From Candidatus Poribacteria bacterium (GTDB lineage: Bacteria; Poribacteria; WGA-4E; PCPOR2b), in NCBI GenBank assembly GCA_965207975.1, contig OZ242315.1, positions 5,066,449 to 5,130,448 of the forward strand: a DNA stretch of 64,000 nt. Reading direction: 5' to 3'. The number at the start of each line of letters is the position of its first letter. Within the stretch, counting starts at the first letter, position 1. The notes beneath the pieces were generated by a model. That model had not been told where the DNA came from. It searched no databases and worked only from the letters and a program-made list of their open reading frames with translations. The position numbers were made by a program, and so were the translations under genes. Positions 1 through 28,053 of this stretch are shown here, in pieces.

Positions 1-422
1 AAGTTAAAGGGACCCTCCCTCCTAGAGGTGAAAGCAATCCGTTTACCGTCAGGAGACCATGAAGGATCCCAGTCATCAGCGGGATTGTTAGTCAGGTTTT
101 GCTGATTGCTTCCATCGGCGTCCATCACGTAGATGTCATGAGTGGGCCGACCGTGTCTGTCAACGTGCCCATCCCTATCGGACTTGAAGGCTATCTGTTT
201 GCCGTCGGGCGACCATACGGGATCCCGATCGCCATCGGAATTATTGGTGAGTTTTCGCAGATTGCCCCCATCAGGGTCCATCACGTAGATTTCATTGTCC
301 CCATCCCTATTGGACGAGAAGGCAATCTGTGCCTGTGCATCAACGGCTACCATCATCGGTGTCAGACTTAATGCTACAACGCTAGCTAAAATCATACGGG
401 CGAGACTATGTCTTCGGTGCAT
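1..422 (-). CDS. PD40/TolB-like beta-propeller repeat protein, secreted (array paralog 1; 5' part only, C-terminus lies beyond window start)
   Basis: Reverse-complement translation from ATG at 420-422 gives [32 protein letters not shown] followed by repeating ...EIYVMD.DG...[12 protein letters not shown]... units. RBS GGAGG upstream on minus strand. Same family as the 8 genes that follow. Confidence 0.8.
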
Positions 423-489
423 CTGCTATGCCTCCTATGGTTTCAAATCGGTTGTTTATCCTTAAAGGTTGTTCTCTCAACAATGGTAG

Positions 490-1467
490 TTAGCGGTCTG
501 CCTGTTTGACCCGTCCCCATAGCGTGAGGACCTTATCGCCGGGCGCAACGGAAAAAGCAGAACCAAACCATGCAGGAGCAAGGTCATCTTCGGGATGATT
601 GGTGATGTTTCGAGGACTGCTCCCATCTGCATTCATTACAAAGATGTCAGGGTTCCCATCCGCCTCTCTATCAGATACGAAGACAATCCGCCTCCCGTCA
701 GGGGACCATGAGGGTTCCGTATCCTTAAAGGGATGATTGGTGAGATTTCGTGGATTACCCCCATCGGCATCCATCACATAGATTTCACCGTTCTTATCCC
801 TCCAGGACTCAAAGGCAATGTGCTCACCGTCAGGAGACCATGAGGGGTTCTTATCAGACTTGGCATTATTGGAGAGGTTTTTGAGTTTGCCTCCATCGGC
901 GTTCATCACGTAGATTTCCATGTTCCCAGCCCCCCAGGCATAAAAGACAATGCGCCTTCCGTCCGGGGACCAAGACGGCCCATAGTCAGGAGAGCCACTA
1001 TTGGTGATGTTTTTTGGTTTGCTCCCATCGGCGTTCATCACGTAGATTTCACTGCCCCCATCCCTACTCGACACGAAGGCAATCCGTTTGCCATCGGGTG
1101 ACCATGCGGGGTCCCAGTCATCAAAGTCATTGTCAGAAAGGTTTCGTTGATTTGCCCCGTCGGCATCCATCACGTAGATTTGTCGGTTCCAATCCTTACC
1201 ACTCCTATCAGCCGTAAAGACAATCTGTTTACCGTCGGGAGACCATGAGGGGTACTCGTCATCACCAGGGGCGTTAGTCAGGTTTCGCAGATTACCACCA
1301 TCGATATCCATCACGTAGATCTCCCACTCCCAATCGCCCCAAACCCTATCAGACGCGAAAACAATCTGTGTCTGCGCCTGTGCATCAACGCAGGCTATCA
1401 GCAGCGTCAGACCCAAGACTATCACACTAGCTAAAATGAAATGTGCGAGACTGTCCCTTCGTTGCAT
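490..1467 (-). CDS. PD40/TolB-like beta-propeller repeat protein, secreted (paralog 2, 6 blades)
   Basis: ORF track 325 aa. N-terminus MQRRDSLAHFILASVIVLGLTLLIACVDAQAQ (signal peptide, AQA cleavage motif). Six EIYVMDx[10 protein letters not shown] blades. Conserved tail PAWFGSAFSVAPGDKVLTLWGRVKQADR. GAGGAGG RBS. Confidence 0.88.
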   Translation of the reverse strand: MQRRDSLAHFILASVIVLGLTLLIACVDAQAQTQIVFASDRVWGDWEWEIYVMDIDGGNLRNLTNAPGDDEYPSWSPDGKQIVFTADRSGKDWNRQIYVMDADGANQRNLSDNDFDDWDPAWSPDGKRIAFVSSRDGGSEIYVMNADGSKPKNITNSGSPDYGPSWSPDGRRIVFYAWGAGNMEIYVMNADGGKLKNLSNNAKSDKNPSWSPDGEHIAFESWRDKNGEIYVMDADGGNPRNLTNHPFKDTEPSWSPDGRRIVFVSDREADGNPDIFVMNADGSSPRNITNHPEDDLAPAWFGSAFSVAPGDKVLTLWGRVKQADR

Positions 1468-1535
1468 CTGTTATCCCTCCTCTGTTTTCAAATCAGTTTT
1501 TTTATTCCTAAACACAGCTCTCTCAACAGTAGCAG

Positions 1536-2396
1536 TTATCGATCAATCTGTTTCAGCCTTCCCCATATTGTAAACCTTTTGCCGGCGGGAGACACCGAAA
1601 AAGGGGAGTTAAGCCATGCAGGACTAGCGTCACTACCGGTATGATCGGTGAGGTTTTGAGATTTGCCTCCATTGACATCCATCACGTAGATTTCAGGGTT
1701 CCCATCCCTACGGGAATAGAAGGCAATGCGCTTGCCATCGGGTGACCATGAGGGCCAGGCGTCAGTCTCGCGATTTTCAGTGAGTCTTTGTTGATTACGG
1801 CCATCGATGTCCATCACGTAGATTTCAAAGTTCTCCCAGTCCCCCTTCCTATCAGACGCGAAGGCAATCCGTTGGCCGTCAGGAGACCATGAGGGATCCC
1901 GGTCATTTTTGCGATTCTCAGTGAGTCTTTGTTGATTGCCCCCGTCGGCGTCCATCACGTAGATTTCAGAAGTGAGTCCAGATGCCCCCTTAAAGTGCCC
2001 ATCCCTAACGGTACTGAAGACAATGCGTTTACCGTCAGGGGACCAGGAAGGATCCCTGTCTTCAGTGAGATTGTTAGTGAGATTTTGAGGATTGCCACCA
2101 TTGGCACCCATCACGTAGATTTCAATGTTATGAGGATTATCCCAATCCCTATTAGACTGGAAAGCAATTCGTGTGCCATCCGGTGACCATGAGGGACGAC
2201 TGTCATGAAAAGGACTGTTAGTGAGATTTTGAGGATTGCCACCATTAGCACCCATCACGTAGATCTCAGCGTTCTCATCCCTCTGAGAGACGAAGGCAAT
2301 CCGTGCCTGTGCGTCAACAACCACCACCAGCAGTGTCAGCACCAAGGCTACTGCGCCAGCTAAAATCGTATATGCGAAATTGTATCTCCGGTGCAT
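1536..2396 (-). CDS. PD40/TolB-like beta-propeller repeat protein, secreted (paralog 3, 5 blades)
   Basis: 286 aa. MHRRYNFAYTILAGAVALVLTLLVVVVDAQA signal peptide, PD40 repeats, conserved C-terminal tail ...[28 protein letters not shown]. Confidence 0.88.
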   Translation of the reverse strand: MHRRYNFAYTILAGAVALVLTLLVVVVDAQARIAFVSQRDENAEIYVMGANGGNPQNLTNSPFHDSRPSWSPDGTRIAFQSNRDWDNPHNIEIYVMGANGGNPQNLTNNLTEDRDPSWSPDGKRIVFSTVRDGHFKGASGLTSEIYVMDADGGNQQRLTENRKNDRDPSWSPDGQRIAFASDRKGDWENFEIYVMDIDGRNQQRLTENRETDAWPSWSPDGKRIAFYSRRDGNPEIYVMDVNGGKSQNLTDHTGSDASPAWLNSPFSVSPAGKRFTIWGRLKQIDR

Positions 2397-2555
2397 CTGT
2401 ATTTCTCCTCTGTTCTCAAAAAAACCGTCAGGTCGTGATTCGGAGGGGACACCCCCTACCTCTACCGTATGTTTTTAGTAGGAGGGCATTCCGACTCCCG
2501 ACGATTGCGCCGGTTTCTAACGTGTGATTTATCAACGTTTTCCCGACAATGATAG

Positions 2556-3590
2556 TCACCGGTTGACCTGTTTGAGCTGTCCCCATATTGTAAACTTTTT
2601 GTCCGCGGGAGAAATCGAAAAAGGAGAATTCAACCATGCAGGAGTAACGTCACCACGCGGATGATTGGTGAGGTTTTGAGGATTGCCTCCATCGGCGTCT
2701 ATCACGTAAATTTCAGTGTTGTGCAAGTCCCCCTCCCGATTAGACCAAAAGGCAATCCGTTCGCCATCGGGGGACCATGAGGGGTCCTGGTCAAAACGGC
2801 GATTTTCAGTGAGTTTTTGCGGATTCTCCCCATCGGCGTCCATCACGTAGATCTCAGTGTTTTGAAGGTCACCCTTCCTATCAGATGAGAAGGCGATCCG
2901 TTTACCGTCCGGAGACCATGAAGGATACGAGTCATTATTGCGATTTTCGGTGAGTCTTTGCGGATTGCCCCCAGCCGCGTCCATCACGTAGATCTCAGAA
3001 GTGATTCCACCTTCGCCTCTAAAGTGTCCCTCCCTCTTAGACGAGAAGATAATGCGTTGACCGTCGGGGGACCATGAGGGATACCTGTCATAATTGGGAT
3101 TATTAGTGAGTCTTTGTTGATTCCCCCCATTGGCATCCATCACGTAGATTTCATAAGCGGCTACAAAGTCTATAAATTTCCCATCCCAAGACGCGAAGGC
3201 AATCCGTTTACCGTCCGGAGACCATGAGGGATCCCTGTCATAATTGGGATTGTTAGTCAGATTTTGAAGATTACCACCATCGGCGTCCATCACGTAGATT
3301 TCATAAGTGGACCAACCGTGTATAACGTGAACGTGACCATCCCGATTAGACATGAAGGCAATCCGTTTACCGTCGGGGGACCATGAAGGTGAAAGATCAT
3401 TTTTGGGATTATTGGTGAGTCTTTGCGGATTCCCCCCATCAGCACCCATCACGTAGATTTCAGGGTTCCCATCCCTATTAGACATGAAGGTAATCTGTGC
3501 CTGCGCGTCAATGACCATCAACAGCAGCACTAGATCCAAGGCTACAACGCTAGCTAAAAGAAAATGTGTCAAATTGTCCCTTCGTTGCAT
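2556..3590 (-). CDS. PD40/TolB-like beta-propeller repeat protein, secreted (paralog 4)
   Basis: ORF extends to 3614 (MKTEEAWQ...), but the family-conserved start MQRRDNLTHF with a GAGGAGG RBS places the start at 3590. Six PD40 blades and the conserved tail. Confidence 0.85.
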   Translation of the reverse strand: MQRRDNLTHFLLASVVALDLVLLLMVIDAQAQITFMSNRDGNPEIYVMGADGGNPQRLTNNPKNDLSPSWSPDGKRIAFMSNRDGHVHVIHGWSTYEIYVMDADGGNLQNLTNNPNYDRDPSWSPDGKRIAFASWDGKFIDFVAAYEIYVMDANGGNQQRLTNNPNYDRYPSWSPDGQRIIFSSKREGHFRGEGGITSEIYVMDAAGGNPQRLTENRNNDSYPSWSPDGKRIAFSSDRKGDLQNTEIYVMDADGENPQKLTENRRFDQDPSWSPDGERIAFWSNREGDLHNTEIYVIDADGGNPQNLTNHPRGDVTPAWLNSPFSISPADKKFTIWGQLKQVNR

Positions 3591-3739
3591 CTGCCATGCC
3601 TCCTCTGTTTTCAAATCGGTTTCTCATCCGTTGGGTTTGATAGAGGTCAACTGTCGGTTTATTATCGCATAAACTCGTCGCACCTGCCTCGGTGTTTATG
3701 ACTTAACCTCAACAAACCTCGTTTTCTCAATAATAGCAG

Positions 3740-4720
3740 TTATCGGTCGGTCTGCTTGAGCCGGCCCCATATCATGAGGGTTTTACCGGTGGGCGCAACT
3801 GAAAGAACAGAGTTATACCATGCAGGAGCAGTGTCATCCTCGGGATGATTAGTGAGGTTTTGCGGATTGCCTCCATCGGCGTCCATTATGTAGATATCCG
3901 GATTCAAATCCCTCGTCCTTTTCGATACGAAGGCAATCCGTTTGCTGTTGGGAGACCATGAGGGATTCCAATCTCTATCGGGATGGTGCGTAAGGTTGCG
4001 CTGATTATCTCCATTGACATCCATCACATAGATGTCCCGAGATCCCGGGTTCCCCTTGGAAGTATAAGCAATGCGCTTACCGTCCGGAGACCATGACGGA
4101 TCCTCGTCAGTACGGTCATTATTGGAGAGGTTTTTGAGTTTGCCACCATCGGCGTTCATCACATAGATGTCCATCTTCCCACCCCTAATGGAAGCAAAGA
4201 CAATGCGCTTGCCGTCAGGTGACCAGGAGGGATTATCGTAAAGAGTGTTATTCTTGGTAAGGTTTTCAGGTTTGCCACCATCGGCGTTCATCACGTAGAT
4301 GTCCATCTTCCCACCCCTAATGGAAACAAAGACAACGCGCTCACCGTCCGGTGACCAGGAGGGATCCCAGTCATCAAAATCATTGTTAGAAAGGTTTTGC
4401 TGATTGCCCCCATCGGCGTCCATTGCGTAGATTTGCCGGTTCCCACCCATATCATTCCTATCAGAGCTAAAGACAATCCATTTACCGTCCGGAGACCAGG
4501 AGGGGTCCTTATCATCACCAGGGCTGTTAGTGAGGTTTTGTAGATTCCCACCATCGGTATCCATCAGGTAGATCTCCCATTGCCAAGTGTCCCAATCCCT
4601 ATCAGAAGCGAAGACAATCTGTGCCTGAGCCTGAGCATCAACGACTACCATCAGCAGCGTTAGTCCCAACACGACAACGCTAGCTAAAATCAGATGTGCG
4701 AGAGTATCCCTCCGTTGCAT
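3740..4720 (-). CDS. PD40/TolB-like beta-propeller repeat protein, secreted (paralog 5)
   Basis: 326 aa. Conserved signal peptide and tail. Contains two near-identical adjacent blades (…IRGGKMDIYVMNADGGK… twice). Confidence 0.88.
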   Translation of the reverse strand: MQRRDTLAHLILASVVVLGLTLLMVVVDAQAQAQIVFASDRDWDTWQWEIYLMDTDGGNLQNLTNSPGDDKDPSWSPDGKWIVFSSDRNDMGGNRQIYAMDADGGNQQNLSNNDFDDWDPSWSPDGERVVFVSIRGGKMDIYVMNADGGKPENLTKNNTLYDNPSWSPDGKRIVFASIRGGKMDIYVMNADGGKLKNLSNNDRTDEDPSWSPDGKRIAYTSKGNPGSRDIYVMDVNGDNQRNLTHHPDRDWNPSWSPNSKRIAFVSKRTRDLNPDIYIMDADGGNPQNLTNHPEDDTAPAWYNSVLSVAPTGKTLMIWGRLKQTDR

Positions 4721-4804
4721 CTGTTATTCCTCCTCTGTTCTCAAATCGACCGTTTATTGTTTAGGAGTGATAGAGGTCCGCTGGTGTTGGCAACCCCTTT
4801 ACAA

Positions 4805-4880
4805 TTATAGTTATAATATAGACACAAATTCCTACTGGGAGTTCTCAAGTAAAGTAACAATTCGGACTATTATCATGTGA
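4805..4880. repeat. About 75-nt conserved non-coding element (tatagttataat(t)atagacacaaattccNactNggagttctcaagtaaagtaacaattcgga) upstream of paralog 5; second copy at 7162-7240 upstream of paralog 7
   Basis: Two copies at about 90% identity seen directly. Contains a TATAAT-like hexamer. Confidence 0.55.
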
Positions 4881-4964
4881 AATCTTTGCCCCTGCTTTGG
4901 CGTTTATGATATACCCCCTCACACTCATACATCTCAGCAAACCCTGTTTTCTCAGTAATCGCAG

Positions 4965-5981
4965 TTATCGGTCAACCTGTTTGAGCCGTCCCCACATTGT
5001 AAACCTTTTGCCTACGGGAGAAACCGAAAACGGAGAGTTCAACCATGCAGGACTATAGTCACCATGGGGATTATTGGTAAGGTTCTGCTGATTTCCACCA
5101 TCAGCGTCCATCACGTAAATTTCAGCGTTCTCATCCCTCCTAGACATGAAGGCAATCCGTTTGCCATCGGGGGACCATGAGGGATGCCTGTCAGAGACGC
5201 GATTTTCAGTGAGTCGCTGTGGATTCCCACCATCGGCGTCCATCACGTAGATGTCCCAGTTTACAACGTCCCCCTTCCTATCAGACTCGATGGCAATCCG
5301 TTTACCGTCAGGGGACCATGAGGAATTCCAGTCATTATTGCGATTGTCAGTGAGTCTTTGTTCATTACCCCCATCGGCGTCCATCACGTAAATTTCATAA
5401 GTAATTCCAAAGTCGTTTTTAAAGTGCCCATCCCTACGGGCACTGAAGGCAATCCGTTTGCCGTCGGGAGACCAGGAGGGATACTGGTCCTCAGTGAGAT
5501 TGTTAGTGAGTCTTTGTTGATTGCTTCCGTCGGCGTCCATCACGTAGATTTCAATGTTATGATCCCTATTATTATCCCTATCAGACGAAAATACGATGCG
5601 TTTACCGTCGGGAGACCACGAGGGGGACCCGTCATTAGAGGGATCGTTAGTGACGTTTTGTTGATTTCGTCCATCAGCATCCATCACGTAAATTTCATAA
5701 TTAGGAGAATCGCGTATGTTAACGTGCCCATCCCTATCGGACACGAAGGCAATCCGTTTACCGTCAGGAGACCAGGAGGGTGAAGCGTCAACATGGCGAT
5801 TATTGGTGAGTCTCTGTGGATTACCCCCATCGTCGTCCATCACGTAGATTTCAGTGTTCCCATCTCTATTAGACACAAAGGCAATCCGTGCCTGTGCATC
5901 AACGTTTACCATCAGCAGCGTTAGACCTAACACGATAACGCTAACTAAAATCATATATGTGAGTTTGTCCCTTCGTTGCAT
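4965..5981 (-). CDS. PD40/TolB-like beta-propeller repeat protein, secreted (paralog 6)
   Basis: 338 aa. Conserved [32 protein letters not shown]-terminus, 6 blades, tail ...PAWLNSPFSVSPVGKRFTMWGRLKQVDR. Confidence 0.88.
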   Translation of the reverse strand: MQRRDKLTYMILVSVIVLGLTLLMVNVDAQARIAFVSNRDGNTEIYVMDDDGGNPQRLTNNRHVDASPSWSPDGKRIAFVSDRDGHVNIRDSPNYEIYVMDADGRNQQNVTNDPSNDGSPSWSPDGKRIVFSSDRDNNRDHNIEIYVMDADGSNQQRLTNNLTEDQYPSWSPDGKRIAFSARRDGHFKNDFGITYEIYVMDADGGNEQRLTDNRNNDWNSSWSPDGKRIAIESDRKGDVVNWDIYVMDADGGNPQRLTENRVSDRHPSWSPDGKRIAFMSRRDENAEIYVMDADGGNQQNLTNNPHGDYSPAWLNSPFSVSPVGKRFTMWGRLKQVDR

Positions 5982-6075
5982 CTGTTATTCCTCCTCTGTA
6001 GTCAAATCGGTTTTTATTCTTTGTTGAACACTCAAAGCCTCCGCTCCGAGAGTCTTCGACTTCCCCTAATAGTAG

Positions 6076-7050
6076 TTATCGGTCAACCTGTTTGAGCCGT
6101 CCCCACATTGTAAACTTTTTGCCTGCGGGAGCAACTGAAAGAACAGCGTTAAGCCATGCAGGAACTTCGTCATCATCGGGATGATTGGTGAGATTTCGTA
6201 GATTCCCCCCATCGCCGTCCATTACGTAGATGTCCCGATTCAAATCCCCATTCCTATTCGACACGAAGGCAATGCTTTTGCCATCGGGTGACCATGAGGG
6301 GTGGAAGTCAACATCGGGATGATTGGTGAGGTTTCGCTGATTCTCCCCATTGGCATCCATCACATAGATGTCCCGGTTTCCCATATTCCTCAAGGAAGTA
6401 AAAGCAATGCGTTTACCGTCCGGTGACCATGAGGGATCCTCGTCAGTACGGTCATTATTGGAGAGGTTTTTAGGCTTGCCCCCATCGTCGTCCATCACGT
6501 AGATGTCTGGTTTCCCACCCCTAACGGAAACAAAGACAATCCGTTTGCCATCTGGAGACCACGAGGGTGAATAGTCAGGAAAGGGATTGTTAGAGAGGTT
6601 TTCAGGGTTGCCCCCATCGGCATCCATCACGTAGATTTCGCTAGCCCCCTTCCTATTAGACACGAAGGCAATCCGTTGACCGTCAGGAGACCATGCGGGG
6701 TCCCAGTCATCAAAGTCATTGTTAGAAAGATTTCGCTGACTCCCTCCATCGTTGTCCATCACGTAGATTTGCCGGTTCCCACCCATATCATTCCTATCAG
6801 ACGAGAAGGCAATTCGTTGGCCGTCCGGAGACCATGAGGGGTCCCTATCATCACCAGGGTTGTTAGTGAGGTTTCGCTGATTGCTCCCATTGTTGTCCAT
6901 CACGTAGATTTCAAACTTTAGAATATCCCAATCCCGATCAGACTCAAAGGCAATCTGCGCCTGTACCTCAACGGCTACCATCAACAGCGTCAGAACCAAA
7001 ACTATAACACTAGCTAAAATCAGATGTGCAAGACTGTATCTCCGTTGCAT
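6076..7050 (-). CDS. PD40/TolB-like beta-propeller repeat protein, secreted (paralog 7)
   Basis: ORF to 7065 (MEEGQ...). Family-conserved start MQRRYSLAHLILASVIVLVLTLLMVAVEVQAQ at 7050 with RBS. Six blades and conserved tail. Confidence 0.85.
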   Translation of the reverse strand: MQRRYSLAHLILASVIVLVLTLLMVAVEVQAQIAFESDRDWDILKFEIYVMDNNGSNQRNLTNNPGDDRDPSWSPDGQRIAFSSDRNDMGGNRQIYVMDNDGGSQRNLSNNDFDDWDPAWSPDGQRIAFVSNRKGASEIYVMDADGGNPENLSNNPFPDYSPSWSPDGKRIVFVSVRGGKPDIYVMDDDGGKPKNLSNNDRTDEDPSWSPDGKRIAFTSLRNMGNRDIYVMDANGENQRNLTNHPDVDFHPSWSPDGKSIAFVSNRNGDLNRDIYVMDGDGGNLRNLTNHPDDDEVPAWLNAVLSVAPAGKKFTMWGRLKQVDR

Positions 7051-7161
7051 CTGTCCTTCCTCCATTATAGTTCGTTCATGTTAAGATTTAGTGCAAAGAA
7101 ACCGAGTTTTTTCGGAAAAACTCGATTTCTCTTCGTATTTCGCACTTTCTTTTTACATGAG

Positions 7162-7240
7162 CCTTATAGTTATAATTATAGACACAAATTCCGACTAGGA
7201 GTTCTCAAGTAAAGTAACAATTCGGATTAAATAGTCATAA
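7162..7240. repeat. Second copy of the 75-nt conserved upstream element (see 4805-4880)
   Basis: Direct comparison with 4805-4880. Confidence 0.55.
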
Positions 7241-7322
7241 TCCCGTGTGTCAATCATCTTACTCCTAAGTTGCGATAACAAGGATACCAACTCACAACAT
7301 AAAAAATCCATTCACTTTTAGG

Positions 7323-7347
7323 AGTTTGGACTTAATATGTCCAAACT
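7323..7347. promoter_or_regulatory. Perfect 9-bp inverted repeat with 7-bp spacer (agtttggac-ttaatat-gtccaaact), candidate operator in the divergent P7/regulator intergenic region
   Basis: Seen directly in sequence. Lies about 200 bp upstream of the SgrR-like regulator and about 270 bp upstream of paralog 7. Confidence 0.3.
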
Positions 7348-7550
7348 CTTCAAAAATGCGCCGTTCGTCATGTTGGCGGAACGGTTTTTCTGGTCCATAT
7401 CCGTTAAAAACTAGTTGCAAATTGAAGGCAAGGAGGTTTATACTGTGTTCGGTGTGGAAAAAGTGTCTGAAAGTTCGATCGTAAGCATCAAATACCCCTA
7501 TCGTTGGAAATTCCGTTCCCAAAGATGGATCTGAATTGGCAGGTGCACAA

Positions 7551-9158
7551 ATGTCCAAAGTCGATACACTCCTCAAACTGATTGCCTATCAAAAGCAACA
7601 CCCCCAAGCAAGCTATGAAGAAATTGCCCAAGGGATTGGAATGTCATCACGACATGTCAGACGATGCGAAAAAGAGGTAAACCTTCTCAAACACCAGTTG
7701 GTTGAACCAGTCCTGCAACCGGGGCAGATCCAACTTCTGCTATCACTACTGAACCGACGTGACCCCGACCAGAAGGAGATTGCCCAACAACTTCAAGAGC
7801 ATATTGGGATTTCCTACACCGGAACCCTTCGCATCAAGCAGCCCGATGAGCAAGTGCCCTTGAGCTGGCTTGAAATCGGGGAGTTGAGTTCCGCCGTCGA
7901 AATGGGGTCCTCAGAGCGTCCGGACCCGATTCTGAGTTACTGGCTGCACCACTTATGCTATGATCCCCTCATGATGTCCCACCGAAACGGAGAAATCGAA
8001 GGACGGCTTGCAACCAGTTGCGAGCCTGTGCAAGGAAACTCTCAGTGGCAGCTGACCTTGAGAGAGGACCTCCGTTGGAGTGATGGAAAGCCGATTACGC
8101 ACGAAGAGATCATCGCGGCGTTTTCCGAGAGCCGCATCGCACCGATTATCGCAGAGATTAAACCGGACGGTAAGAACCAACTCCGGGTCCAACTTTCCCA
8201 AGAAGCACCGCTCTTCCCATTCCATCTGCGAGGTATCTGCCCACACCCCTCCCATTCTTCCCGACCTTACCGTGTGATCTCCGGCCCCTATCGAGTGAAG
8301 TATTTTCGCCCGGCTGCCATGACCTTTCGCTTTGAGCAGAATCCACATTACTACCGCGGAGTGGACAGCAGCATTGACGGGTTAACCTTGAGGCGTTTCG
8401 CACACCCCGCCAACGCCATTAAGGCGGTTGAGAGCGGCACACTGGATCTGCTTGCTGTCCATCTCCATGCGATGCAGTCCCTCTACCAATTCCCAACGAC
8501 GGTGCCTTGGCAGCAGTGGCCCTTTTTTGGAGATAGCTACTACGCCCTATTCCTCAACCGGCATCATGGGCCTCTATCGGATGAAAGGAACTGTAGGATG
8601 CTTAAAGAAGCGATCGATTACCGAGCTATTAACCTCTATCTGCGCATGGGCCAAGTTGCTGAGGAAGAAAACCTCTCACCACCTTCTCACTCTCCTCTTG
8701 ACATTCGGATTTACAGCTCGGGCGGCGTTTTTCGCGATTTGGTTCACCCCATTGGCAAGTCAATAGGTTCTTCTGTCGTGAATCCTATCTCTGGCAAAGG
8801 AGAGATGCGGGAAGAGGCGGACGCTTTTTTAACTCAACCCGTTTTTGGTCTGGAGTACCATAACCTATCCCGATTCTTCCATTCCGACGGAGAAGATAAC
8901 TTTTTCGGCTACTCCAATCCCCAAGTTGACGAGATGCTCTCTCAACTCAATAGCATAGGGAACTTAGGGGCAAGAAGAAGAATTGGGCGGCAGATATTGT
9001 CCCTCGTACAGGAGGATTTCGCGGTGATCCTGTTGGCACCCGACCTTCACTATTCACTCTCCCCGTTAGAAATCCAGTTTGACGATAACCTTACCCACAT
9101 TATCGATCTGATTCAAAACATGAGCCAAATCACTGTGGAGCGGCATCGGTCCGGTTAG
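7551..9158 (+). CDS. SgrR-family transcriptional regulator (N-terminal HTH fused to a solute-binding-protein family 5-like domain)
   Basis: N-terminus ...YEEIAQGIGMSSRHVRRCEKEV... is HTH-like. The central ...QWQLTLREDLRWSDGKPITHEEIIAAF... matches the SBP_bac_5 signature arrangement seen in SgrR-type regulators. The track ORF starts at a TTG (7536); ATG at 7551 (MSKVD) has an AGGTG RBS. Confidence 0.6.
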   Translation: MSKVDTLLKLIAYQKQHPQASYEEIAQGIGMSSRHVRRCEKEVNLLKHQLVEPVLQPGQIQLLLSLLNRRDPDQKEIAQQLQEHIGISYTGTLRIKQPDEQVPLSWLEIGELSSAVEMGSSERPDPILSYWLHHLCYDPLMMSHRNGEIEGRLATSCEPVQGNSQWQLTLREDLRWSDGKPITHEEIIAAFSESRIAPIIAEIKPDGKNQLRVQLSQEAPLFPFHLRGICPHPSHSSRPYRVISGPYRVKYFRPAAMTFRFEQNPHYYRGVDSSIDGLTLRRFAHPANAIKAVESGTLDLLAVHLHAMQSLYQFPTTVPWQQWPFFGDSYYALFLNRHHGPLSDERNCRMLKEAIDYRAINLYLRMGQVAEEENLSPPSHSPLDIRIYSSGGVFRDLVHPIGKSIGSSVVNPISGKGEMREEADAFLTQPVFGLEYHNLSRFFHSDGEDNFFGYSNPQVDEMLSQLNSIGNLGARRRIGRQILSLVQEDFAVILLAPDLHYSLSPLEIQFDDNLTHIIDLIQNMSQITVERHRSG

Positions 9159-9212
9159 CAATCCACACTATTGAATCGGTATCTTCACGCAACCTACCAT
9201 CGAATCATAAAA

Positions 9213-9246
9213 AAAACCGAGTTTTTTCTTCAAAACTCGGTTTCTT
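9213..9246. terminator. AT-rich 12-bp palindromic hairpin (aaaccgagtttt-ttcttc-aaaactcggttt) between convergent genes; bidirectional terminator-like; member of a repeat family
   Basis: Inverted repeat with flanking A and T runs. Sits between the regulator stop (9158) and the paralog 8 stop (9433). Near-identical copies at 7097, 24241, 28533 and 60886. Confidence 0.4.
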
Positions 9247-9432
9247 CCTCTAGTATCGTAGATTCCATACCCGTAGGTTCCGATAGAACGGCATCGGGCA
9301 TCCCCGATAAGATCGGGATTCCGCTTATGCTCAACTTGTCCGCCCCCAAACCTGCATCAACAACCGAAATTCGTAGGGAACGGGGATCTCCGTTCCGTTT
9401 ACCCTCACGTATCACGCATTACGTATTATTCC

Positions 9433-10446
9433 TCATCGGTCAGTCTGTTTAAGCCTCCCCCATATCGTGAATATCTTACCTATGGGGGCGACTGCAAAAG
9501 CAGGACCAAGCCATGCAGGATCGGTGTCAGCGTGGCGATTAAGGGTGAGGTTTCGCTGATTCTTCCCATCGGCCTCCATCACGTAGATTTCTCCCTCATT
9601 GCTATCCTCATAAGACGTGAAGGCAATGCGCGTGCCGTCAGTTGACCATGAGGGTTCCCAGTCCTCATGGAAATTTTTAGTGAGTCTTCGCAGATTCTCC
9701 CCATCGGCATCCATCACGTAGATTTCAAAGCCTTCAAGCTCCCCCTTCTCATCCGACGCGAAGGCAATGCGCTCACCGTCGGGTGACCACGAGGGCATCC
9801 AGTCATTCTGACGATTTTCGGTGAGTCTTTGTTCATTCCTTCCGTCGGCGTCCATCACGTAGATTTCATCAGTGATTCCAAACCTGCTTCTAAAGTGTCC
9901 AGCCCGCTGAGACACGAAGACAATGCGCTTACCGTCCGGAGACCATGCGGGAGCCCAGTCCACATGGGGATCATTGGTGAGGTTTCGCTGATTGCCACCA
10001 TCGACAGCCATCACGTAGATTTCATTATCCCAATCGTCCTCCTCCCTAGCAGTAACAAAAGCAATGCGCTTACCATCAGGGGACCATGCGGGATCCCAGT
10101 CTCCATTGGGATGGTTGGTAAGGTTCCGCTGATTACCACCATCGGCATCCATCACGTAGATTTCAAAGTCCCCATCCCTCTCAGACATGAACGCAATCCG
10201 TTTACCATCAGGGGACCATGAGGGATCCCTATCCTCAAGGGGATTGTTAGTGAGTCTTCGCTGATTCTTCCCATCGGTATCCATCACATAGATTTCATGG
10301 GTGGAGTGCCCGTCTATAACATGCCCATCCCTATTAGATATGAAGGCAATCTGTGCCTGTGCGTCAACACATACCATCAGCAGCGTCAGCACCAAGACAA
10401 CAACGCCAGCTAAAATCAAATGTACGAGATTGTATCTCCGCTGCAT
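9433..10446 (-). CDS. PD40/TolB-like beta-propeller repeat protein, secreted (paralog 8)
   Basis: 337 aa. MQRRYNLVHLILAGVVVLVLTLLMVCVDAQAQ, 6 blades, tail ...[28 protein letters not shown]. Confidence 0.88.
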   Translation of the reverse strand: MQRRYNLVHLILAGVVVLVLTLLMVCVDAQAQIAFISNRDGHVIDGHSTHEIYVMDTDGKNQRRLTNNPLEDRDPSWSPDGKRIAFMSERDGDFEIYVMDADGGNQRNLTNHPNGDWDPAWSPDGKRIAFVTAREEDDWDNEIYVMAVDGGNQRNLTNDPHVDWAPAWSPDGKRIVFVSQRAGHFRSRFGITDEIYVMDADGRNEQRLTENRQNDWMPSWSPDGERIAFASDEKGELEGFEIYVMDADGENLRRLTKNFHEDWEPSWSTDGTRIAFTSYEDSNEGEIYVMEADGKNQRNLTLNRHADTDPAWLGPAFAVAPIGKIFTIWGRLKQTDR

Positions 10447-10512
10447 CTGCTATGCCTCCTCCGTTCTCAAAATGGTTTCTTACCTTAAACACCGTTCTCT
10501 CAATAATACCAG

Positions 10513-11472
10513 TTATTGCCCGACCTGTTTAAGCCTCCCCCATATCGTGAGGGTCTTACCAGCGGGAGCAACCGAAAACACGGGTCCAAACCATGTAGGA
10601 TCCGTGTCATGGCTGCGATTATTGGTGAGGTTTTGCTGATTACCACCATCGGCATCCATCACGTAGATTTCATAGTCCCTGCCCCTAAAGTTCCTACCCT
10701 CGCTAGAAGCAAAGACGATGCGCTTACTGTCGGGAGACCAGGACGGATTCGTATCCTTAAAAGGATTGTCAGAGATTCTTCGCTGATTACCCCCATCGGC
10801 ATCCATCACATAGATGTCCAAGCCTCCACCCCTGACGGAATCAAAGGCGATGTGCTTACCGTCGGGAGACCATGAGGGATTTTCGTCATGAAAGCCATTA
10901 TTGGTAAGGTTTCGCTGATTACCCCCATCGGCGTCCATCACGTAGATCTCGACCCCATCCCTAACGGAAACAAAGGCAATCTGTTTGCCGTCAGGGGACC
11001 ATGAAGGATCCTTATCATTAACGGGATTGTTAGAGAGGTTGCGTGGATTACCTCCATCGGCATCCATCACGTAGATTTCACCGTTCCCGTTCCGCTTAGA
11101 GCCAAAAGCAATGTGCTTGCCATCGGGTGACCATGACGGTGAAGAGTCATCGTGGCGATTATTGGTGAGGTTTTTAGGGTGGCCCCCATTGGCGTTCATC
11201 ACGTAGATTTCCATGTTCTCAGCCCTAACGGAAACAAAGGCGATGCGTCTGCCGTCGGGCGACCATGACGGTGAAAAGTCATCATGCCGATTCTTCGTGA
11301 GTCTTCGCTGGTTATCTCCGTCGGCATCCATCACATAGATCTCACTGTTCCCGTTCCTATCAGACACGAAAGCAATCTGCGCCTGTGCATCAACGACTAC
11401 CATCAGCAGCGTTAGTCCCAACACGACAACACTGATTAAAATGAAATGTGCGAGCGTATCTCTCTGTTGCAT
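10513..11472 (-). CDS. PD40/TolB-like beta-propeller repeat protein, secreted (paralog 9)
   Basis: ORF to 11499. Family start [32 protein letters not shown] at 11472. Six blades, tail ...[28 protein letters not shown]. Confidence 0.85.
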
Positions 11473-11579
11473 CGGATATGCCTCCCAACCTACGAACAAA
11501 AAAAACCCAGAGAGATAACAGATGTGGACGAGGCTCTCTGGGGCTAGTCAATCTTGTGCGGGTTTAGGCGAGGGGTTTA

Positions 11580-12545
11580 TCAATCATACTCTAACACGAT
11601 CTTGATTGCCTCATCCTTCTTATACAAAGACAACTCAAACCCGCGCTGCACCTCCGTAAACGGCAGCCGGTGGGTGATCATCGGTGAAACATCAATCCGT
11701 CCTTGTGCAATCATATCCATCGCCAACGGAAAATTATTCTGTGCATCGGGACCCACTGATCCGATCAAGCGGATATTTTTCCTGAACAGGTCACCGAAAC
11801 GGAAAGGGTAGGTCGGGTCATCAGGCACACCGAACGCCAGAAGCGTCCCATCCCGCTTGACGAGATCCATACACTGATTGATCGTCTCCGTCTGATGGCC
11901 TACCACTTCAACGACCAGATCTGCCATCCGACCGTCTGTGATCTCCTCAACAGCAGCGACCGTATCCACCTCAGCGGCATTAATCGTATGCGTCGCTTGC
12001 ATCTGTTTTGCTGCGTCCAGACGAAAATCAACGAGATCTGTTGCAACGACCGTTTTCGCACCCAAGTTACTCAACAAGTGCGTAAACAGCAATCCCATCG
12101 GTCCCTGTCCGACCACAACAACATCCTGATTCAGCAGGTTGCCTAACTTGCTACACGCCCAGATCACCGTGCCGAGCGGTTGAGACATCAGGATACAATC
12201 CTTGCGTCCAAATTCCACCAACGGGACGGTAACGCCTTCGTGGGCAACAAAGTATTCCGAAAGGCCACCGGGCCGTCCCGGCAGCGCAAGCACCGCGTCC
12301 CCTTCCTTAAACCGATCTGACTTACTCGCAGCCACTACGCCGATACATTCATGGATGGTCATCCCCGGCGATAGTGGATAGGCATCGGCTGGATGTTCCA
12401 TAACAAACGATGGCATATCAGTGCCACAAATAGCGTTCATTTGATTCTTTATAAGTACAGCTCCCTCCGGGTCAGATGAAATATCAGGCTTATCAATATC
12501 GATCATCTCAATCTGACGGGGAGCAACAATTTGTGCAGCTTTCAC
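11580..12545 (-). CDS. Zinc-dependent medium-chain alcohol dehydrogenase family protein (threonine/sorbitol dehydrogenase-like)
   Basis: 321 aa. Catalytic-zinc region ...NAICGTDMPSF... and Rossmann motif VVVVGQGPMGLLFTHLLSNLGA are typical of the MDR superfamily. Confidence 0.7.
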   Translation of the reverse strand: MKAAQIVAPRQIEMIDIDKPDISSDPEGAVLIKNQMNAICGTDMPSFVMEHPADAYPLSPGMTIHECIGVVAASKSDRFKEGDAVLALPGRPGGLSEYFVAHEGVTVPLVEFGRKDCILMSQPLGTVIWACSKLGNLLNQDVVVVGQGPMGLLFTHLLSNLGAKTVVATDLVDFRLDAAKQMQATHTINAAEVDTVAAVEEITDGRMADLVVEVVGHQTETINQCMDLVKRDGTLLAFGVPDDPTYPFRFGDLFRKNIRLIGSVGPDAQNNFPLAMDMIAQGRIDVSPMITHRLPFTEVQRGFELSLYKKDEAIKIVLEYD

Positions 12546-12655
12546 ATATCCCTCCTAAACCAAAGTAATAGGCACGTTGCTTTTAATCCCGATCATCGGG
12601 GCTCCGCGTGCCGTTCACCAATTTCACGTTTCACGCTTCTGTTCTGACATGAACC

Positions 12656-27900: not shown

Positions 27901-28053
27901 TTGGAGCAGGGATTGGAACGCTGATCGCACCGCCCCTTCATGCCTAGCACCGAGCCGATCAAACTGATCTAGCTCGCTGTAGTAGTCTCTAACAATTTTG
28001 TGTGTTGGTCTAAGATTGAGGCTTGCCACAAAACACCTTAAAGTAATAGGCAC
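24946..28053 (-). CDS. MmeI-like (Type IIL/IIG) single-polypeptide restriction-modification enzyme; N6-adenine DNA methyltransferase fused to endonuclease
   Basis: 1035 aa. N-terminal candidate PD-ExK ...DNFRLTHGYWEAKD.... Central SAM-binding region ...IIDPFVGTGNF.... Catalytic motif IV ...VVIGNPPYNVGQ.... C-terminal region consistent with a target-recognition domain. Confidence 0.6.
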   Translation of the reverse strand: MPITLRCFVASLNLRPTHKIVRDYYSELDQFDRLGARHEGAVRSAFQSLLQKCAGQFDWTLVPEHSMTGIQNGRIVVDGALMDNFRLTHGYWEAKDADDDLPAEVVRKFERGYPRDNILFQEPHRAILWQNERQTLDADLTDPTELIGTLETFFSHRPPEYTEWEEAVSQFRERVPALGQGLAERIHGERETNQAFISAFADFYEKCRQSINPNLSEAAVEEMLIQHLLTEQIFHTVFYNQDFTRRNVIANEIEKVIDALTSQSFSRHDFLGHLNPFYTAIERTAATIEDFSQKQGFLNTVYEQFFQGFSVKVADTHGIVYTPQPIVDFMVRSVEEILKTEFNRSLSDSGVHIIDPFVGTGNFIVRTMREIRKTALAGKYTTELYCNEVMLLPYYIASMNIEHEFYEATGRYQPFEGICLVDTFELAEDTHYYESSLFTEENTRRVEEQNNTPMFVVIGNPPYNVGQVNENDNNKNRGYPTMDSRVKETYAKDSTATNKNALADPYVKAIRWASDRIEEEGIVALVTNDSFLTDMAFDGMRKHLADDFDAIYILDLSGNVRKNPKLSGTTHNVFGIQVGVSINFFIKRRDGANVQSEIFYARLDEFWRKEDKYRYLDSKEHYRNIEWQSIIPDRRCTWLTEGLHAEFETFIPIGTKEAKAEKDEVMEVIFHRFSNGVGTSRDAWAYNFNPSRLTQKMSQTIETYNAEVNRWEHRGDRDANIDDFVLSDEAKIKWSSALKQKLRSGQIAKFADTKIRQSLYRPFTKSNLFFDRVMNHRVHVFPSIFPTPETESENRVICVGGYGRKEFAVLMSTFIPDLNFYADPQQSFPFYTYDEDGRNRRENITDWALGQFRAHYGDDTIGKWDIFHYVYGLLHHPTYRERYQANLKRDLPRLPYTPDFWEFAKAGQRLGEIHVGYEEVDAYPLCFVETPDIPLDWRVERMRLSRDKTQIKYNDFLTLDGIPAKAFDYRLGNRSALEWVIDQYQVKTDKRSGIVNDPNRPDDEEYIVRLVGKVITVSLETVEIVEGLPELEIAD

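What the first reader, a model, noticed from the sequence alone, without database searches (positions are those of the whole stretch)
1..11499. Tandem array of nine paralogous secreted PD40 beta-propeller genes, interrupted by an SgrR-type regulator
Nine head-to-tail minus-strand genes span 11.5 kb. Each encodes a 286-352-aa protein with a near-identical signal peptide ([32 protein letters not shown]), 5-6 TolB-like PD40 blades with divergent loop sequences, and a near-identical 28-aa C-terminal tail ([28 protein letters not shown]). Every gene has its own GAGGAGG RBS. This architecture, with constant export signal and velcro-closing strand and a variable ligand-facing interior, is what is expected of a diversified binding-protein family (receptors, decoys, immunity or adhesion modules). 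I know of no characterised system with this form. The array runs off the left edge of the window, so it may be longer.
Basis: partly seen in the sequence, partly recalled or inferred. Interest (0 to 1): 0.78.

Follow-up and report, generated by a model that had tools for sequence, protein, structure and literature searches.

The report
Tandem secreted PD40 propeller genes, Poribacteria
This is one of many tandem arrays, in a sponge-symbiont (Poribacteria) genome, of exported TolB-like six-bladed beta-propeller proteins that keep a constant scaffold, leader and C-terminal tag while varying the loops on one face; it is real and coherent, but it is an expanded repeat-protein family rather than a new kind of system.

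Summary
There are eight complete minus-strand PD40 genes plus one cut by the left edge (54-73% aa identity), and a divergently oriented HTH+SBP_bac_5 (SgrR-like) regulator sits inside the array. The organism is Candidatus Poribacteria.

The array is not unique. In 66 related loci from about 14 genomes I found 344 family ORFs, always co-oriented in tandem. One genome has about 24 consecutive copies.

AlphaFold gives a confident six-bladed TolB-like propeller (g3 has five blades). The last ~20-25 residues of the conserved "tail" are disordered, so they are not a velcro strand; only the xxPAW strand can belong to the propeller.

The tail core (V-x-P-x-x-K-x-x-T-x-W-G-x-[IL]-K plus exactly four residues) also ends neighbouring exported DUF1080 proteins. 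I read it as a portable C-terminal tag.

Variation sits at about six positions per blade and in indel-rich loops on one face. dN/dS is 0.13 in strands and 0.4-0.6 in loops, and never exceeds 1. The family is diversified, but positive selection is not shown.

Best reading: a repertoire of exported binding modules under a local regulator, with unknown ligand. Domain-level PD40 enrichment in sponge microbiomes is already published. Interest is moderate.

The parts
1..422 (-). g1p: 5' part (140 aa) of a ninth paralog, cut by the window edge
   Evidence: Translation and tblastn. Its 94% ortholog in L006 (6820-7833) is full length.
490..1467 (-). g2: 325-aa PD40 propeller paralog
   Evidence: PD40 E 1e-61. 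87% ortholog in L006.
1536..2396 (-). g3: 286-aa five-blade variant
   Evidence: The AF2 model has five blades, pLDDT 79, and the closure is poorly modelled. Five-blade members make up 37 of 238 complete members.
2556..3590 (-). g4: 344-aa paralog (ATG at the conserved MQRR; the ORF extends to a TTG at 3614)
3740..4720 (-). g5: 326-aa paralog
4817..4869 (-). 53-nt conserved upstream element, ~100 nt before the g5 start (a second copy lies before g7)
   Evidence: Direct repeat D12, 94% identical. It recurs 12 times in related loci, always in the same orientation and upstream of a PD40 gene. A promoter/operator role is inferred only.
4965..5981 (-). g6: 338-aa paralog, the one modelled. Leader helix 2-29, six 4-stranded blades at 31-313, tail 314-338.
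   Evidence: AF2, Foldseek against TolB, Pfam/NCBIfam.
6076..7050 (-). g7: 324-aa paralog, first gene of the sub-array that diverges from the regulator
   Evidence: 90% ortholog in L006.
7095..7130 (.). 34-36-nt perfect palindrome (AGAAACCGAGTTTTT-TCGG-AAAAACTCGATTTCT) in the g7 leader
   Evidence: hairpin -20.5 kcal/mol. It is a repeated element with ~35 sites in related loci, often just after PD40 stop codons.
7177..7229 (-). Second copy of the 53-nt upstream element, in the g7/regulator divergent intergenic region
7536..9158 (+). HTH + SBP_bac_5 (SgrR-like) cytoplasmic regulator. The conserved start is probably the ATG at 7551 (MSKVDTLL).
   Evidence: Pfam SBP_bac_5 E 6e-23 and a weak HTH. 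SgrR_N is sub-threshold. Collinear 23% match to E. coli SgrR. Paralogs sit next to PD40 arrays in 20 of 66 loci, always on the opposite strand.
9210..9245 (.). Second copy of the palindrome, between the convergent regulator and g8. Probably a bidirectional terminator.
   Evidence: D13, 86% identity. The terminator role is inferred from its position and its A-tract/stem/T-tract form.
9433..10446 (-). g8: 337-aa paralog
10513..11472 (-). g9: 319-aa paralog (ATG at MQQR)
   Evidence: 96% ortholog in L006.
11497..11542 (-). Terminator-like hairpin plus T8 after the ADH gene, marking the upstream boundary of the array's transcription
   Evidence: RNA fold of 11473-11579. The terminator function is inferred.

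Best explanation
The region is one of many tandem arrays of a Poribacteria-specific, greatly expanded family of exported single-domain TolB-like PD40 beta-propellers.

Architecture of each gene product:
- A Sec-type N-terminal leader: a positive MQRR n-region, a long hydrophobic helix and an A-x-A site. It may be cleaved or may act as a signal anchor.
- A six-bladed (sometimes five-bladed) propeller whose scaffold is under strong purifying selection.
- About six hypervariable positions per blade plus indel-rich loops. By beta-meander topology these all lie on one face.
- A conserved ~25-residue C-terminal linear motif outside the fold (S-V-x-P-x-G-K-x-x-T-x-W-G-x-L-K plus four residues).

Inferred mechanism:
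- The propellers form a repertoire of periplasmic or surface binding modules with different specificities on the variable face.
- The C-terminal motif is a shared tag for sorting, anchoring or partner docking. The co-located exported DUF1080 (lectin/hydrolase-fold) proteins use the same tag.
- The embedded SgrR-like HTH-SBP5 protein senses a small ligand and controls transcription of the neighbouring genes.
- The arrays grew by old tandem duplication and are reshuffled between related genomes.

Shown: the fold, the leader features, the pattern of variation, the portability and fixed C-terminal register of the tail, and the recurrence of arrays with the regulator. Inferred: export, binding function, ligand, role of the tail, and regulation.
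For: - Fold: PD40 repeats. AF2 gives a six-blade propeller with pLDDT 86.9 and pTM 0.84. Top PDB matches are TolB propellers at E 1e-21, rmsd 2.2-2.6 A.
- Leader in 225 family members: RR in 193, A-x-A in 210, lipobox in 3, Tat core in 2. The mature part is cysteine-free in 211.
- Variation: column entropy is low in strands and tight turns and high in the s2-s3 and s4-s1 loops and flanking positions. dN/dS is 0.13 in strands, 0.17 in tight turns, 0.60 and 0.38 in the two loop classes, and 0.33 in the tail. Window paralogs are 72% identical in the scaffold and 35% in loops. Hypervariable positions are enriched ~2x in H, Y, W, S and F.
- Tail: pLDDT <50 in two models, yet as conserved as the strands. 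It ends exactly 4 residues after WGxLK in 212 of 225 members. The same core and register occur on PF06439/DUF1080 proteins with a different leader.
- Family scale: 344 co-oriented copies in 66 loci from ~14 Poribacteria genomes.
- Turnover: only 5 of 9 window copies have an ortholog of >=87% in the closest available genome, and the order differs.
- Regulator: paralogs 67-91% identical sit next to arrays in 20 loci, always on the opposite strand.
Against: - There is no direct evidence of export, binding or any ligand.
- dN/dS never exceeds 1 (maximum 0.81 at single blade positions). The loop variation could therefore reflect relaxed constraint rather than selection for new specificities.
- The hydrophobic leader core is long (median 15 residues, up to 24), so it could be an uncleaved membrane anchor.
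- In 1.39 Mb of Poribacteria sequence the tail occurs only on three protein families, so it is not shown to be a general sorting signal. No Pfam or NCBIfam model recognises it.
- The placement of variable loops on one face rests on strand topology, not on model coordinates, which were not available.
- The regulator link is positional only. A reciprocal search found just two distant homologues, on short contigs without PD40 genes.
Confidence: 0.55

Rival explanations
1. The family has a nutrient-capture role. The propellers bind peptides or glycans released from the sponge matrix. They would work with degradative and uptake proteins (DUF1080 hydrolase-fold proteins, M19 dipeptidase, gamma-glutamyltranspeptidase, CstA), and the SBP5-domain regulator would sense the imported product.
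For: PD40 propellers gate substrate access in S9 peptidases, which are the next-best fold matches. DUF1080/3-keto-disaccharide-hydrolase genes with the same tail lie directly upstream of family members in at least 8 loci. An M19 dipeptidase flanks the orthologous arrays. CstA and GGT lie 7-10 kb away in the window. The regulator's sensor domain belongs to the oligopeptide/nickel-binding fold.
Against: None of the propeller genes carries a catalytic domain. The neighbouring metabolic genes are common genes with no shown co-regulation. This reading does not explain why dozens of variants are needed.
Confidence: 0.15
2. The proteins are host-interaction effectors of the 'eukaryotic-like protein' class. 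Secreted or surface propellers would bind sponge proteins to avoid phagocytosis or immune recognition.
For: PD40 and TolB-like domains are among the repeat classes enriched in sponge microbiomes (PMC9531527, PMC5735121). Kamke et al. 2014 found that many poribacterial repeat proteins carry export signals (PMC3909097). The family has a variable surface and is lineage-specific.
Against: PD40 is mainly a bacterial domain (my own knowledge). No secretion system or host target is linked to these proteins. No experimental precedent for PD40 proteins in this role turned up in the literature searches. There is no signal of positive selection.
Confidence: 0.15
3. The proteins form a variable cell-surface coat, serving as phage-receptor decoys or for antigenic variety, with one or a few copies expressed at a time.
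For: There are many diverged copies with a constant leader and tail. Array content turns over between related genomes. Some copies have their own conserved upstream element.
Against: No PADLOC hits. No invertible or recombination elements and no DGR-type near-identical repeats. The duplications are old and under purifying selection.
Confidence: 0.08
4. The genes are redundant TolB paralogs working in the Tol-Pal envelope system.
For: The closest solved structures are TolB. TIGR02800 is the best NCBIfam hit.
Against: The TIGR02800 score of 250-260 is below the cut-off of 343. The N-terminal TolA-binding domain is absent, since the propeller starts at residue 32. There is no tol-pal gene context. 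There are dozens of copies per genome.
Confidence: 0.03
5. The array is an assembly artefact or a set of decaying pseudogenes.
For: The sequence is highly repetitive (42 blade-level DNA repeats).
Against: Repeats are at most 85% identical. All eight ORFs are intact and have ribosome-binding sites. dN/dS is 0.10-0.28 against orthologs. The same arrays occur in several closed 6-7 Mb genomes.
Confidence: 0.01

Closest known systems
TolB (Tol-Pal system periplasmic protein; TIGR02800; PDB 1C5K, 2HQS)
   Same: Both have a Sec-type leader and a six-bladed PD40 beta-propeller. The superposition is at rmsd 2.2-2.6 A over ~291 columns with 24-26% identity.
   Different: The family has no N-terminal alpha/beta (TolA-binding) domain and scores below the equivalog cut-off. 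It is not in a tol-pal operon. It has dozens of tandem paralogs, hypervariable loops and an extra conserved C-terminal motif.
Propeller-only 'putative TolB' proteins (e.g. Agrobacterium tumefaciens, PDB 2OJH, 277 aa)
   Same: Both are single-domain PD40 propellers of similar size (rank 20).
   Different: 2OJH has no assigned function. I know of no expansion, shared leader or shared tail for that protein.
Eukaryotic-like / repeat proteins (ANK, TPR, LRR, WD40, NHL, PD40) enriched in sponge symbionts
   Same: Both are repeat-domain families expanded in sponge-associated bacteria, often with export signals. PD40 and TolB-like propellers are explicitly listed as enriched (PMC9531527, PMC5735121, PMC3909097).
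   Different: The published work is at the level of domain counts. The tandem arrays, the conserved leader and tail, the one-face variability and the regulator association were not found in the searched literature.
SgrR (E. coli sugar-phosphate stress regulator)
   Same: Both have an N-terminal DNA-binding domain fused to a cytoplasmic SBP_bac_5 domain. The two proteins align collinearly across the domain junction.
   Different: Identity is only 23%. SgrR_N scores below the Pfam cut-off. Rfam finds no divergent SgrS-like sRNA. The neighbours are PD40 genes, not sugar transport genes.
C-terminal sorting tags of cargo families (T9SS CTD, PEP-CTERM/exosortase and similar)
   Same: Both involve a conserved C-terminal element shared by otherwise unrelated exported proteins at a fixed register from the C-terminus.
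   Different: The tail is only ~25 residues, has no transmembrane segment and matches no known model. No processing or sorting enzyme has been identified. Only three cargo families were seen.

Membership tests
PD40 / TolB-like beta-propeller fold (PF07676) | Multiple PD40 repeats above the Pfam gathering score | tested here: met
   203-204 bits against a cut-off of 20.9, with 4-5 repeat hits per protein.
PD40 / TolB-like beta-propeller fold (PF07676) | Closed six-bladed propeller structure | tested here: met
   AF2 gives six 4-stranded blades at pLDDT 86.9 and Foldseek matches TolB at E 1e-21. g3 has five blades with uncertain closure.
TolB of the Tol-Pal system (TIGR02800) | Whole-protein score at or above the equivalog cut-off | tested here: not met
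   259.9 and 249.1 bits against a cut-off of 343.15.
TolB of the Tol-Pal system (TIGR02800) | N-terminal alpha/beta domain preceding the propeller | tested here: not met
   The first propeller strand starts at residue 32, directly after the leader. No N-terminal domain hit.
TolB of the Tol-Pal system (TIGR02800) | tolQRA-tolB-pal operon context | tested here: not met
   The neighbours are paralogs, a regulator, an ADH and a TPP enzyme.
T9SS C-terminal sorting domain (TIGR04183 / Por_Secre_tail) | HMM match of a ~70-100-aa C-terminal domain | tested here: not met
   No hit even at E<=10 on tails or whole proteins. The tail is ~25 aa and is predicted to be disordered.
T9SS C-terminal sorting domain (TIGR04183 / Por_Secre_tail) | T9SS machinery genes in the genome | not tested
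   Only 64 kb of the genome was available. Kamke et al. 2014 reported no Por secretion genes in Poribacteria (PMC3909097).
SgrR-type regulator | Cytoplasmic SBP_bac_5 domain fused to an N-terminal DNA-binding domain | tested here: met
   SBP_bac_5 E 6e-23, HTH at residues 8-47 (weak hits), and no hydrophobic leader in the sequence.
SgrR-type regulator | SgrR_N domain (PF12793) above the cut-off | tested here: inconclusive
   14.6 bits against a cut-off of 24. BLASTP to E. coli SgrR is collinear over residues 51-231, E 5e-4, 23% identity.
SgrR-type regulator | Divergent SgrS-like sRNA target | tested here: not met
   No Rfam family matched at E<=0.1 in 1-12600.
Bacterial lipoprotein | Lipobox with an invariant Cys at the end of the leader | tested here: not met
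   A lipobox pattern occurs in 3 of 225 members, and the Cys at position ~26 is not conserved.
Tat substrate | Twin-arginine core R-R-x-[FGAVML]-[LITMVF] | tested here: not met
   RR is present in 193 of 225 members, but the core pattern in only 2 of 225.
DGR-diversified variable protein | Near-identical template/variable repeat pair | tested here: not met
   No DNA repeat above 85% identity in 1-12000 apart from two short intergenic elements.
DGR-diversified variable protein | Nearby reverse transcriptase | not tested
   The window was not scanned specifically for a reverse transcriptase. Only selected ORFs were run against Pfam.
Sponge-symbiont 'eukaryotic-like' repeat proteins | Repeat-domain family expanded in sponge-associated bacteria | tested here: met
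   All 66 loci recovered are Candidatus Poribacteria, with 12-49 copies per genome in the sampled loci alone (6 in CBDCUX, represented by only two loci). PD40 is listed as enriched in PMC9531527.
Known anti-phage defence systems (PADLOC) | Match to a defence protein model | tested here: not met
   No hits for g6, g3 or the regulator.

The most novel reading that the evidence does not exclude
The 25-residue tail (V-x-P-x-x-K-x-x-T-x-W-G-x-[IL]-K plus four residues) could be an undescribed C-terminal tag. It would mark a cargo set (the PD40 propellers plus the adjacent DUF1080 proteins) for a dedicated pathway of sorting, anchoring, glycosylation or tail-into-propeller assembly. At many other loci the arrays sit in a repeated module with a PMT_2-type GT-C glycosyltransferase, a TylF-like methyltransferase, DUF4198 and the same regulator family. 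The system may therefore build a variable, possibly glycosylated, propeller coat on the symbiont surface.
Probability: 0.15. Interest if true: 0.75.

Novelty: new variant of a known kind. Interest (0 to 1): 0.45.

Why it matters
Poribacteria are dominant, uncultivated sponge symbionts, and how they persist in the host is an open question. This family accounts for at least 17-49 genes per genome in the sampled loci alone for most genomes. It has the anatomy of a binding-protein repertoire: a constant scaffold, one variable face, a common leader and a common C-terminal tag. If the tag proves to be a sorting or assembly signal, it would define a new cargo-recognition route in a phylum with no genetic system. 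It would also give concrete candidates (propeller, tail peptide, regulator, upstream elements) for biochemical tests of symbiont-host or symbiont-matrix interaction. If not, the array is one more expanded repeat-protein family, useful mainly for annotation.

Tried and rejected
1. Extending the contig leftwards. Exact-protein look-ups for g6 and g2 found nothing on record, so only the syntenic locus L006 could be used.
2. Tail as a T9SS CTD or any other known domain. No Pfam or NCBIfam hit at E<=10.
3. Searching the large protein database with tail-only queries. I judged longer queries uninformative because the top-120 list would be filled by the same families.
4. Positive selection. Pooled Nei-Gojobori estimates by structural class and by blade position over 48 independent close pairs never gave a ratio above 1. 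This method is conservative.
5. Gene conversion keeping the leaders and tails alike. Rejected, because synonymous divergence is as high there as elsewhere.
6. Lipoprotein or Tat export. Rejected by motif counts.
7. Defence system. No PADLOC hit.
8. Riboswitch or known sRNA in the intergenic regions. No Rfam hit.
9. Sigma-70 promoter and terminator scans. Not above the shuffled background.
10. Reciprocal test of the regulator-array link in JGI metagenomes. The first scan found nothing. The second found two 45%-identical homologues on contigs of 5.5-6.7 kb without PD40 genes, which is uninformative.
11. A recurrent '272-aa ORF' next to PMT_2. It appears to be an out-of-frame ORF inside the PMT_2 gene: it has an abnormal R/C/S/H-rich composition, and in L047 the only matching ORF overlaps PMT_2.
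12. Source names for the proteins. None were on record.

Full report
OBSERVATION

The ORF list and translations show eight complete minus-strand genes: 490-1467, 1536-2396, 2556-3590, 3740-4720, 4965-5981, 6076-7050, 9433-10446 and 10513-11472. A ninth gene starts at 422 and runs off the left edge.

Pairwise protein identity is 54-73%. No DNA repeat in 1-12000 exceeds 85% identity. Synonymous differences between paralogs are 0.42-0.53 in every region. The copies are therefore old duplicates, not an assembly artefact and not homogenised by gene conversion.

Pfam finds 4-5 PD40 repeats per protein (E 1e-53 to 1e-61).

Each gene is preceded by a Shine-Dalgarno sequence: exact GAGGAGG in 5 of 9, close variants in the rest. 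This lies within a shared ~30-nt leader.

The plus-strand gene at 7536-9158 carries an HTH and an SBP_bac_5 domain.

Among the window paralogs the leader is 68% identical, the tail 64%, the propeller scaffold 72% and the loops 35%.

ORGANISM AND SCALE

A pattern scan of one genome per species recovered 453 related stretches. All 66 loci kept are Candidatus Poribacteria, the sponge symbionts.

A profile of the window paralogs finds 344 family ORFs in these 1.33 Mb. They are always co-oriented and nearly always tandem, with 1-15 per 21-kb locus. Most genomes have 12-49 copies in the sampled loci alone; CBDCUX, represented by only two loci, has 6.

In OZ244825.1 two overlapping loci (L003 and L018) show about 24 consecutive copies after the regulator.

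The protein database holds at least 7,900 relatives at E<=1e-20, and the listed ones are 56-95% identical. The window array is thus one instance of a very large lineage-specific family.

STRUCTURE

AlphaFold2 with an 80-sequence alignment gives a confident model of g6 (pLDDT 86.9, pTM 0.84). It has an N-terminal helix at 2-29 and six four-stranded blades from residue 31 to 313. The best solved matches are TolB propellers (E 1e-21, rmsd 2.2-2.6 A, 24-26% identity), followed by the propellers of S9 peptidases.

The chain enters the propeller directly after the leader (strand 32-37) and leaves it at strand 308-313 (xxPAW). Residues 319-338 have pLDDT below 50.

The 286-aa g3 is modelled with five blades (pLDDT 79). 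Its closure is uncertain and its tail is again disordered. Five-blade members are 37 of 238 complete members, against 182 six-blade members.

THE TAIL IS PORTABLE

Across 225 complete members the tail is as conserved as the beta-strands: mean column entropy 1.07 bits against 1.02. Its dN/dS is 0.33. In 212 of 225 members it ends exactly four residues after W-G-x-L-K.

The same core, V-x-P-x-x-K-x-x-T-x-W-G-x-I-K followed by four residues, terminates 15 neighbouring proteins of a different fold. These are PF06439 3-keto-disaccharide hydrolase/DUF1080 proteins (E 7e-11). They have a different, shorter signal peptide. A looser version ends a divergent propeller.

No Pfam or NCBIfam model matches the tail, and that includes the T9SS sorting domain Kamke et al. 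2014 suggested for some poribacterial repeat proteins.

A conserved, unstructured motif at a fixed register from the C-terminus, shared by different exported proteins, is best read as a C-terminal tag for sorting, anchoring or partner docking. That role is inferred, not shown.

LEADER

Of 225 members, 193 have RR near the start and 210 have an A-x-A-type site. Only 2 fit the Tat core and only 3 have a lipobox. The mature part is cysteine-free in 211.

This pattern fits Sec export. The long hydrophobic core leaves open whether the leader is cleaved or stays as a signal anchor.

PATTERN OF VARIATION

Each blade reads [D-x-x-P-S-W-S-P]-DGK-[R-I-A-F-x-S-x-R]-variable loop-[E-I-Y-V-M-D]-ADGGN-[x-Q-R-L-T]-N-N-x-x-x.

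High entropy is confined to three places:
- the variable-length loop between strands 2 and 3;
- the loop before strand 1 together with the two residues preceding its Pro;
- two alternating positions at the end of strand 2.

In a beta-meander these all lie on one face, and the two invariant tight turns (DGK, ADGGN) lie on the other.

The 36 hypervariable positions each use 6-12 effective residues. They are enriched about twofold in H, Y, W, S and F.

Over 48 independent pairs of close relatives (80-97% identical), dN/dS by structural class is as follows:

| Class | dN/dS |
|---|---|
| Strands | 0.13 |
| Tight turns | 0.17 |
| Strand 2 | 0.36 |
| Loop class 1 | 0.60 |
| Loop class 2 | 0.38 |
| Overall | 0.27 |

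No blade position exceeds 0.81. Orthologs against the closest genome give 0.10-0.28, compared with 0.08 for the flanking ADH and 0.19 for the regulator.

The family is therefore diversified on one face, but positive selection is not demonstrated. The pooled pairwise method is conservative.

ARRAY DYNAMICS

In the closest available genome (L006, OZ220744.1) the flanking ADH is 95% identical and the regulator 90%.

The gene order there is ADH, g9', X, regulator, g2', g1', Y, g7', g6', then seven more copies. In the window it is ADH, g9, g8, regulator, g7, g6, g5, g4, g3, g2, g1.

Only g9, g7, g6, g2 and g1 have orthologs of at least 87% in L006. Array content and order therefore turn over between close relatives.

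L006 has 12 copies after the regulator, and L003 plus L018 have about 24. The window array probably continues beyond the left edge.

REGULATOR AND EXPRESSION SIGNALS

The regulator has an SBP_bac_5 domain (E 6e-23), a weak N-terminal HTH and no leader. SgrR_N is sub-threshold at 14.6 bits against a cut-off of 24. BLASTP to E. coli SgrR is collinear across the domain junction (23% identity, E 5e-4). 'SgrR-type' is right for the architecture and unproven for family membership.

Paralogs of this regulator, 67-91% identical to one another, lie within 8 kb of PD40 arrays in 20 of the 66 loci. They occur at several distinct places per genome and are always on the opposite strand. This supports a functional link, which remains positional.

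Signals in and around the array:
- A terminator-like hairpin with a T8 tract follows the ADH gene upstream of g9.
- The short 66-68-nt spacers have no stable hairpin, so neighbouring genes are probably co-transcribed.
- A 53-nt element lies ~100 nt upstream of both g5 and g7. It occurs upstream of PD40 genes at ten further sites in related loci, in the same orientation, which suggests internal promoters or operators.
- A 34-nt perfect palindrome sits in the g7 leader (7095-7130) and between the convergent regulator and g8 (9210-9245). It recurs at ~35 sites in related loci, often just after PD40 stop codons. It is probably a bidirectional terminator or a REP-like element.
- The consensus promoter/terminator scan was not above background, and Rfam found nothing.

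COMPARISON WITH WHAT IS KNOWN

The fold and leader match TolB, but the defining features of TolB are absent: the equivalog score, the N-terminal domain and the operon context.

PD40 and TolB-like propeller domains are reported as enriched 'eukaryotic-like protein' classes in sponge microbiomes (PMC9531527, PMC5735121). Kamke et al. 2014 noted abundant repeat proteins with export signals in Poribacteria. Those reports are domain counts.

My literature searches found no description of the tandem arrays, the shared leader and tail, the one-face variability or the regulator association. No defence-system model matches.

VERDICT

The 'diversified binding-protein family' reading is reasonable for the propeller. 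It is wrong about the tail, unproven about selection and mistaken about uniqueness.

I file it as a new variant of a known kind: an expanded exported repeat-protein family of a sponge symbiont, built on a TolB-like propeller. Interest is moderate.

The most novel reading that remains open is that the tail is an undescribed C-terminal tag. It might be tied to the PMT_2/TylF modules that accompany arrays at other loci.

Noticed in passing
Related loci L005, L008, L015, L016, L017, L026, L027, L039, L044, L045, L047, L048, L049, L052, L053, L055 (e.g. L047 6346-18228): A second, repeated locus type: DUF4198(-), 2-5 PD40 genes(+), a TylF-like O-methyltransferase(-), a PMT_2 GT-C glycosyltransferase(-) and the same HTH-SBP5 regulator family(-). 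It occurs several times per genome and sometimes twice in tandem. It suggests the propellers may be linked to a periplasmic glycosylation step. The module is absent from the window.
   Followed up: partly
L001 13772-14242, L004 336-1247, L012 382-1206, L023 19385-20266, L026 18859-19797, L032 13169-14017, L033 13216-14118, L060 13516-14448: A DUF1080/3-keto-disaccharide-hydrolase gene carrying the same WGxIK+4 tail lies directly upstream of a PD40 family member, on the same strand with almost no gap. This is a recurrent gene pair.
   Followed up: partly
window 7095-7130 and 9210-9245; ~35 sites in loci L004-L047: A 34-nt perfect palindrome, AGAAACCGAGTTTTT-TCGG-AAAAACTCGATTTCT, is a dispersed repeated element in Poribacteria. 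It often lies just after PD40 stop codons. It could be a terminator or a REP-like element.
   Followed up: partly
window 4817-4869 and 7177-7229; ten more sites (e.g. L006 5638-5683, L013 6550-6595): A 53-nt conserved element lies ~100 nt upstream of a subset of PD40 genes, always in the same orientation. It is a candidate promoter or operator.
   Followed up: partly
window 44032-46542 and 46560-48587 (+): Two adjacent large WD40-repeat proteins (836 and 675 aa, with 13 and 11 WD40 hits). This is another tandem pair of repeat proteins in the same window.
   Followed up: no
window 24946-28053 (-): A type ISP restriction-modification enzyme (Type_ISP_C, coupler and N6_Mtase domains).
   Followed up: no
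window 12656-14251 (-): A 531-aa protein with no Pfam hit that is ~95% identical across several Poribacteria genomes and lies next to arrays there. Its function is unknown.
   Followed up: no
window 99-371, 1929-2186, 5358-5783, 9829-10221, 10516-10875 (+): Long plus-strand ORFs antisense to the PD40 genes (repeating 'IGVHHVDF...' peptides). They are by-products of the repeated codon pattern and not likely to be genes.
   Followed up: no
L068 3395-4978, L069 4444-6027 (JGI metagenome contigs): Distant (45% identical) homologues of the HTH-SBP5 regulator on short contigs with no PD40 gene visible. One has an IS605 TnpB-like ORF nearby.
   Followed up: partly
L047 15321-16623: A ~1.3-kb stretch between PMT_2 and the regulator with no ORF longer than 100 aa. 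It was not examined further.
   Followed up: no
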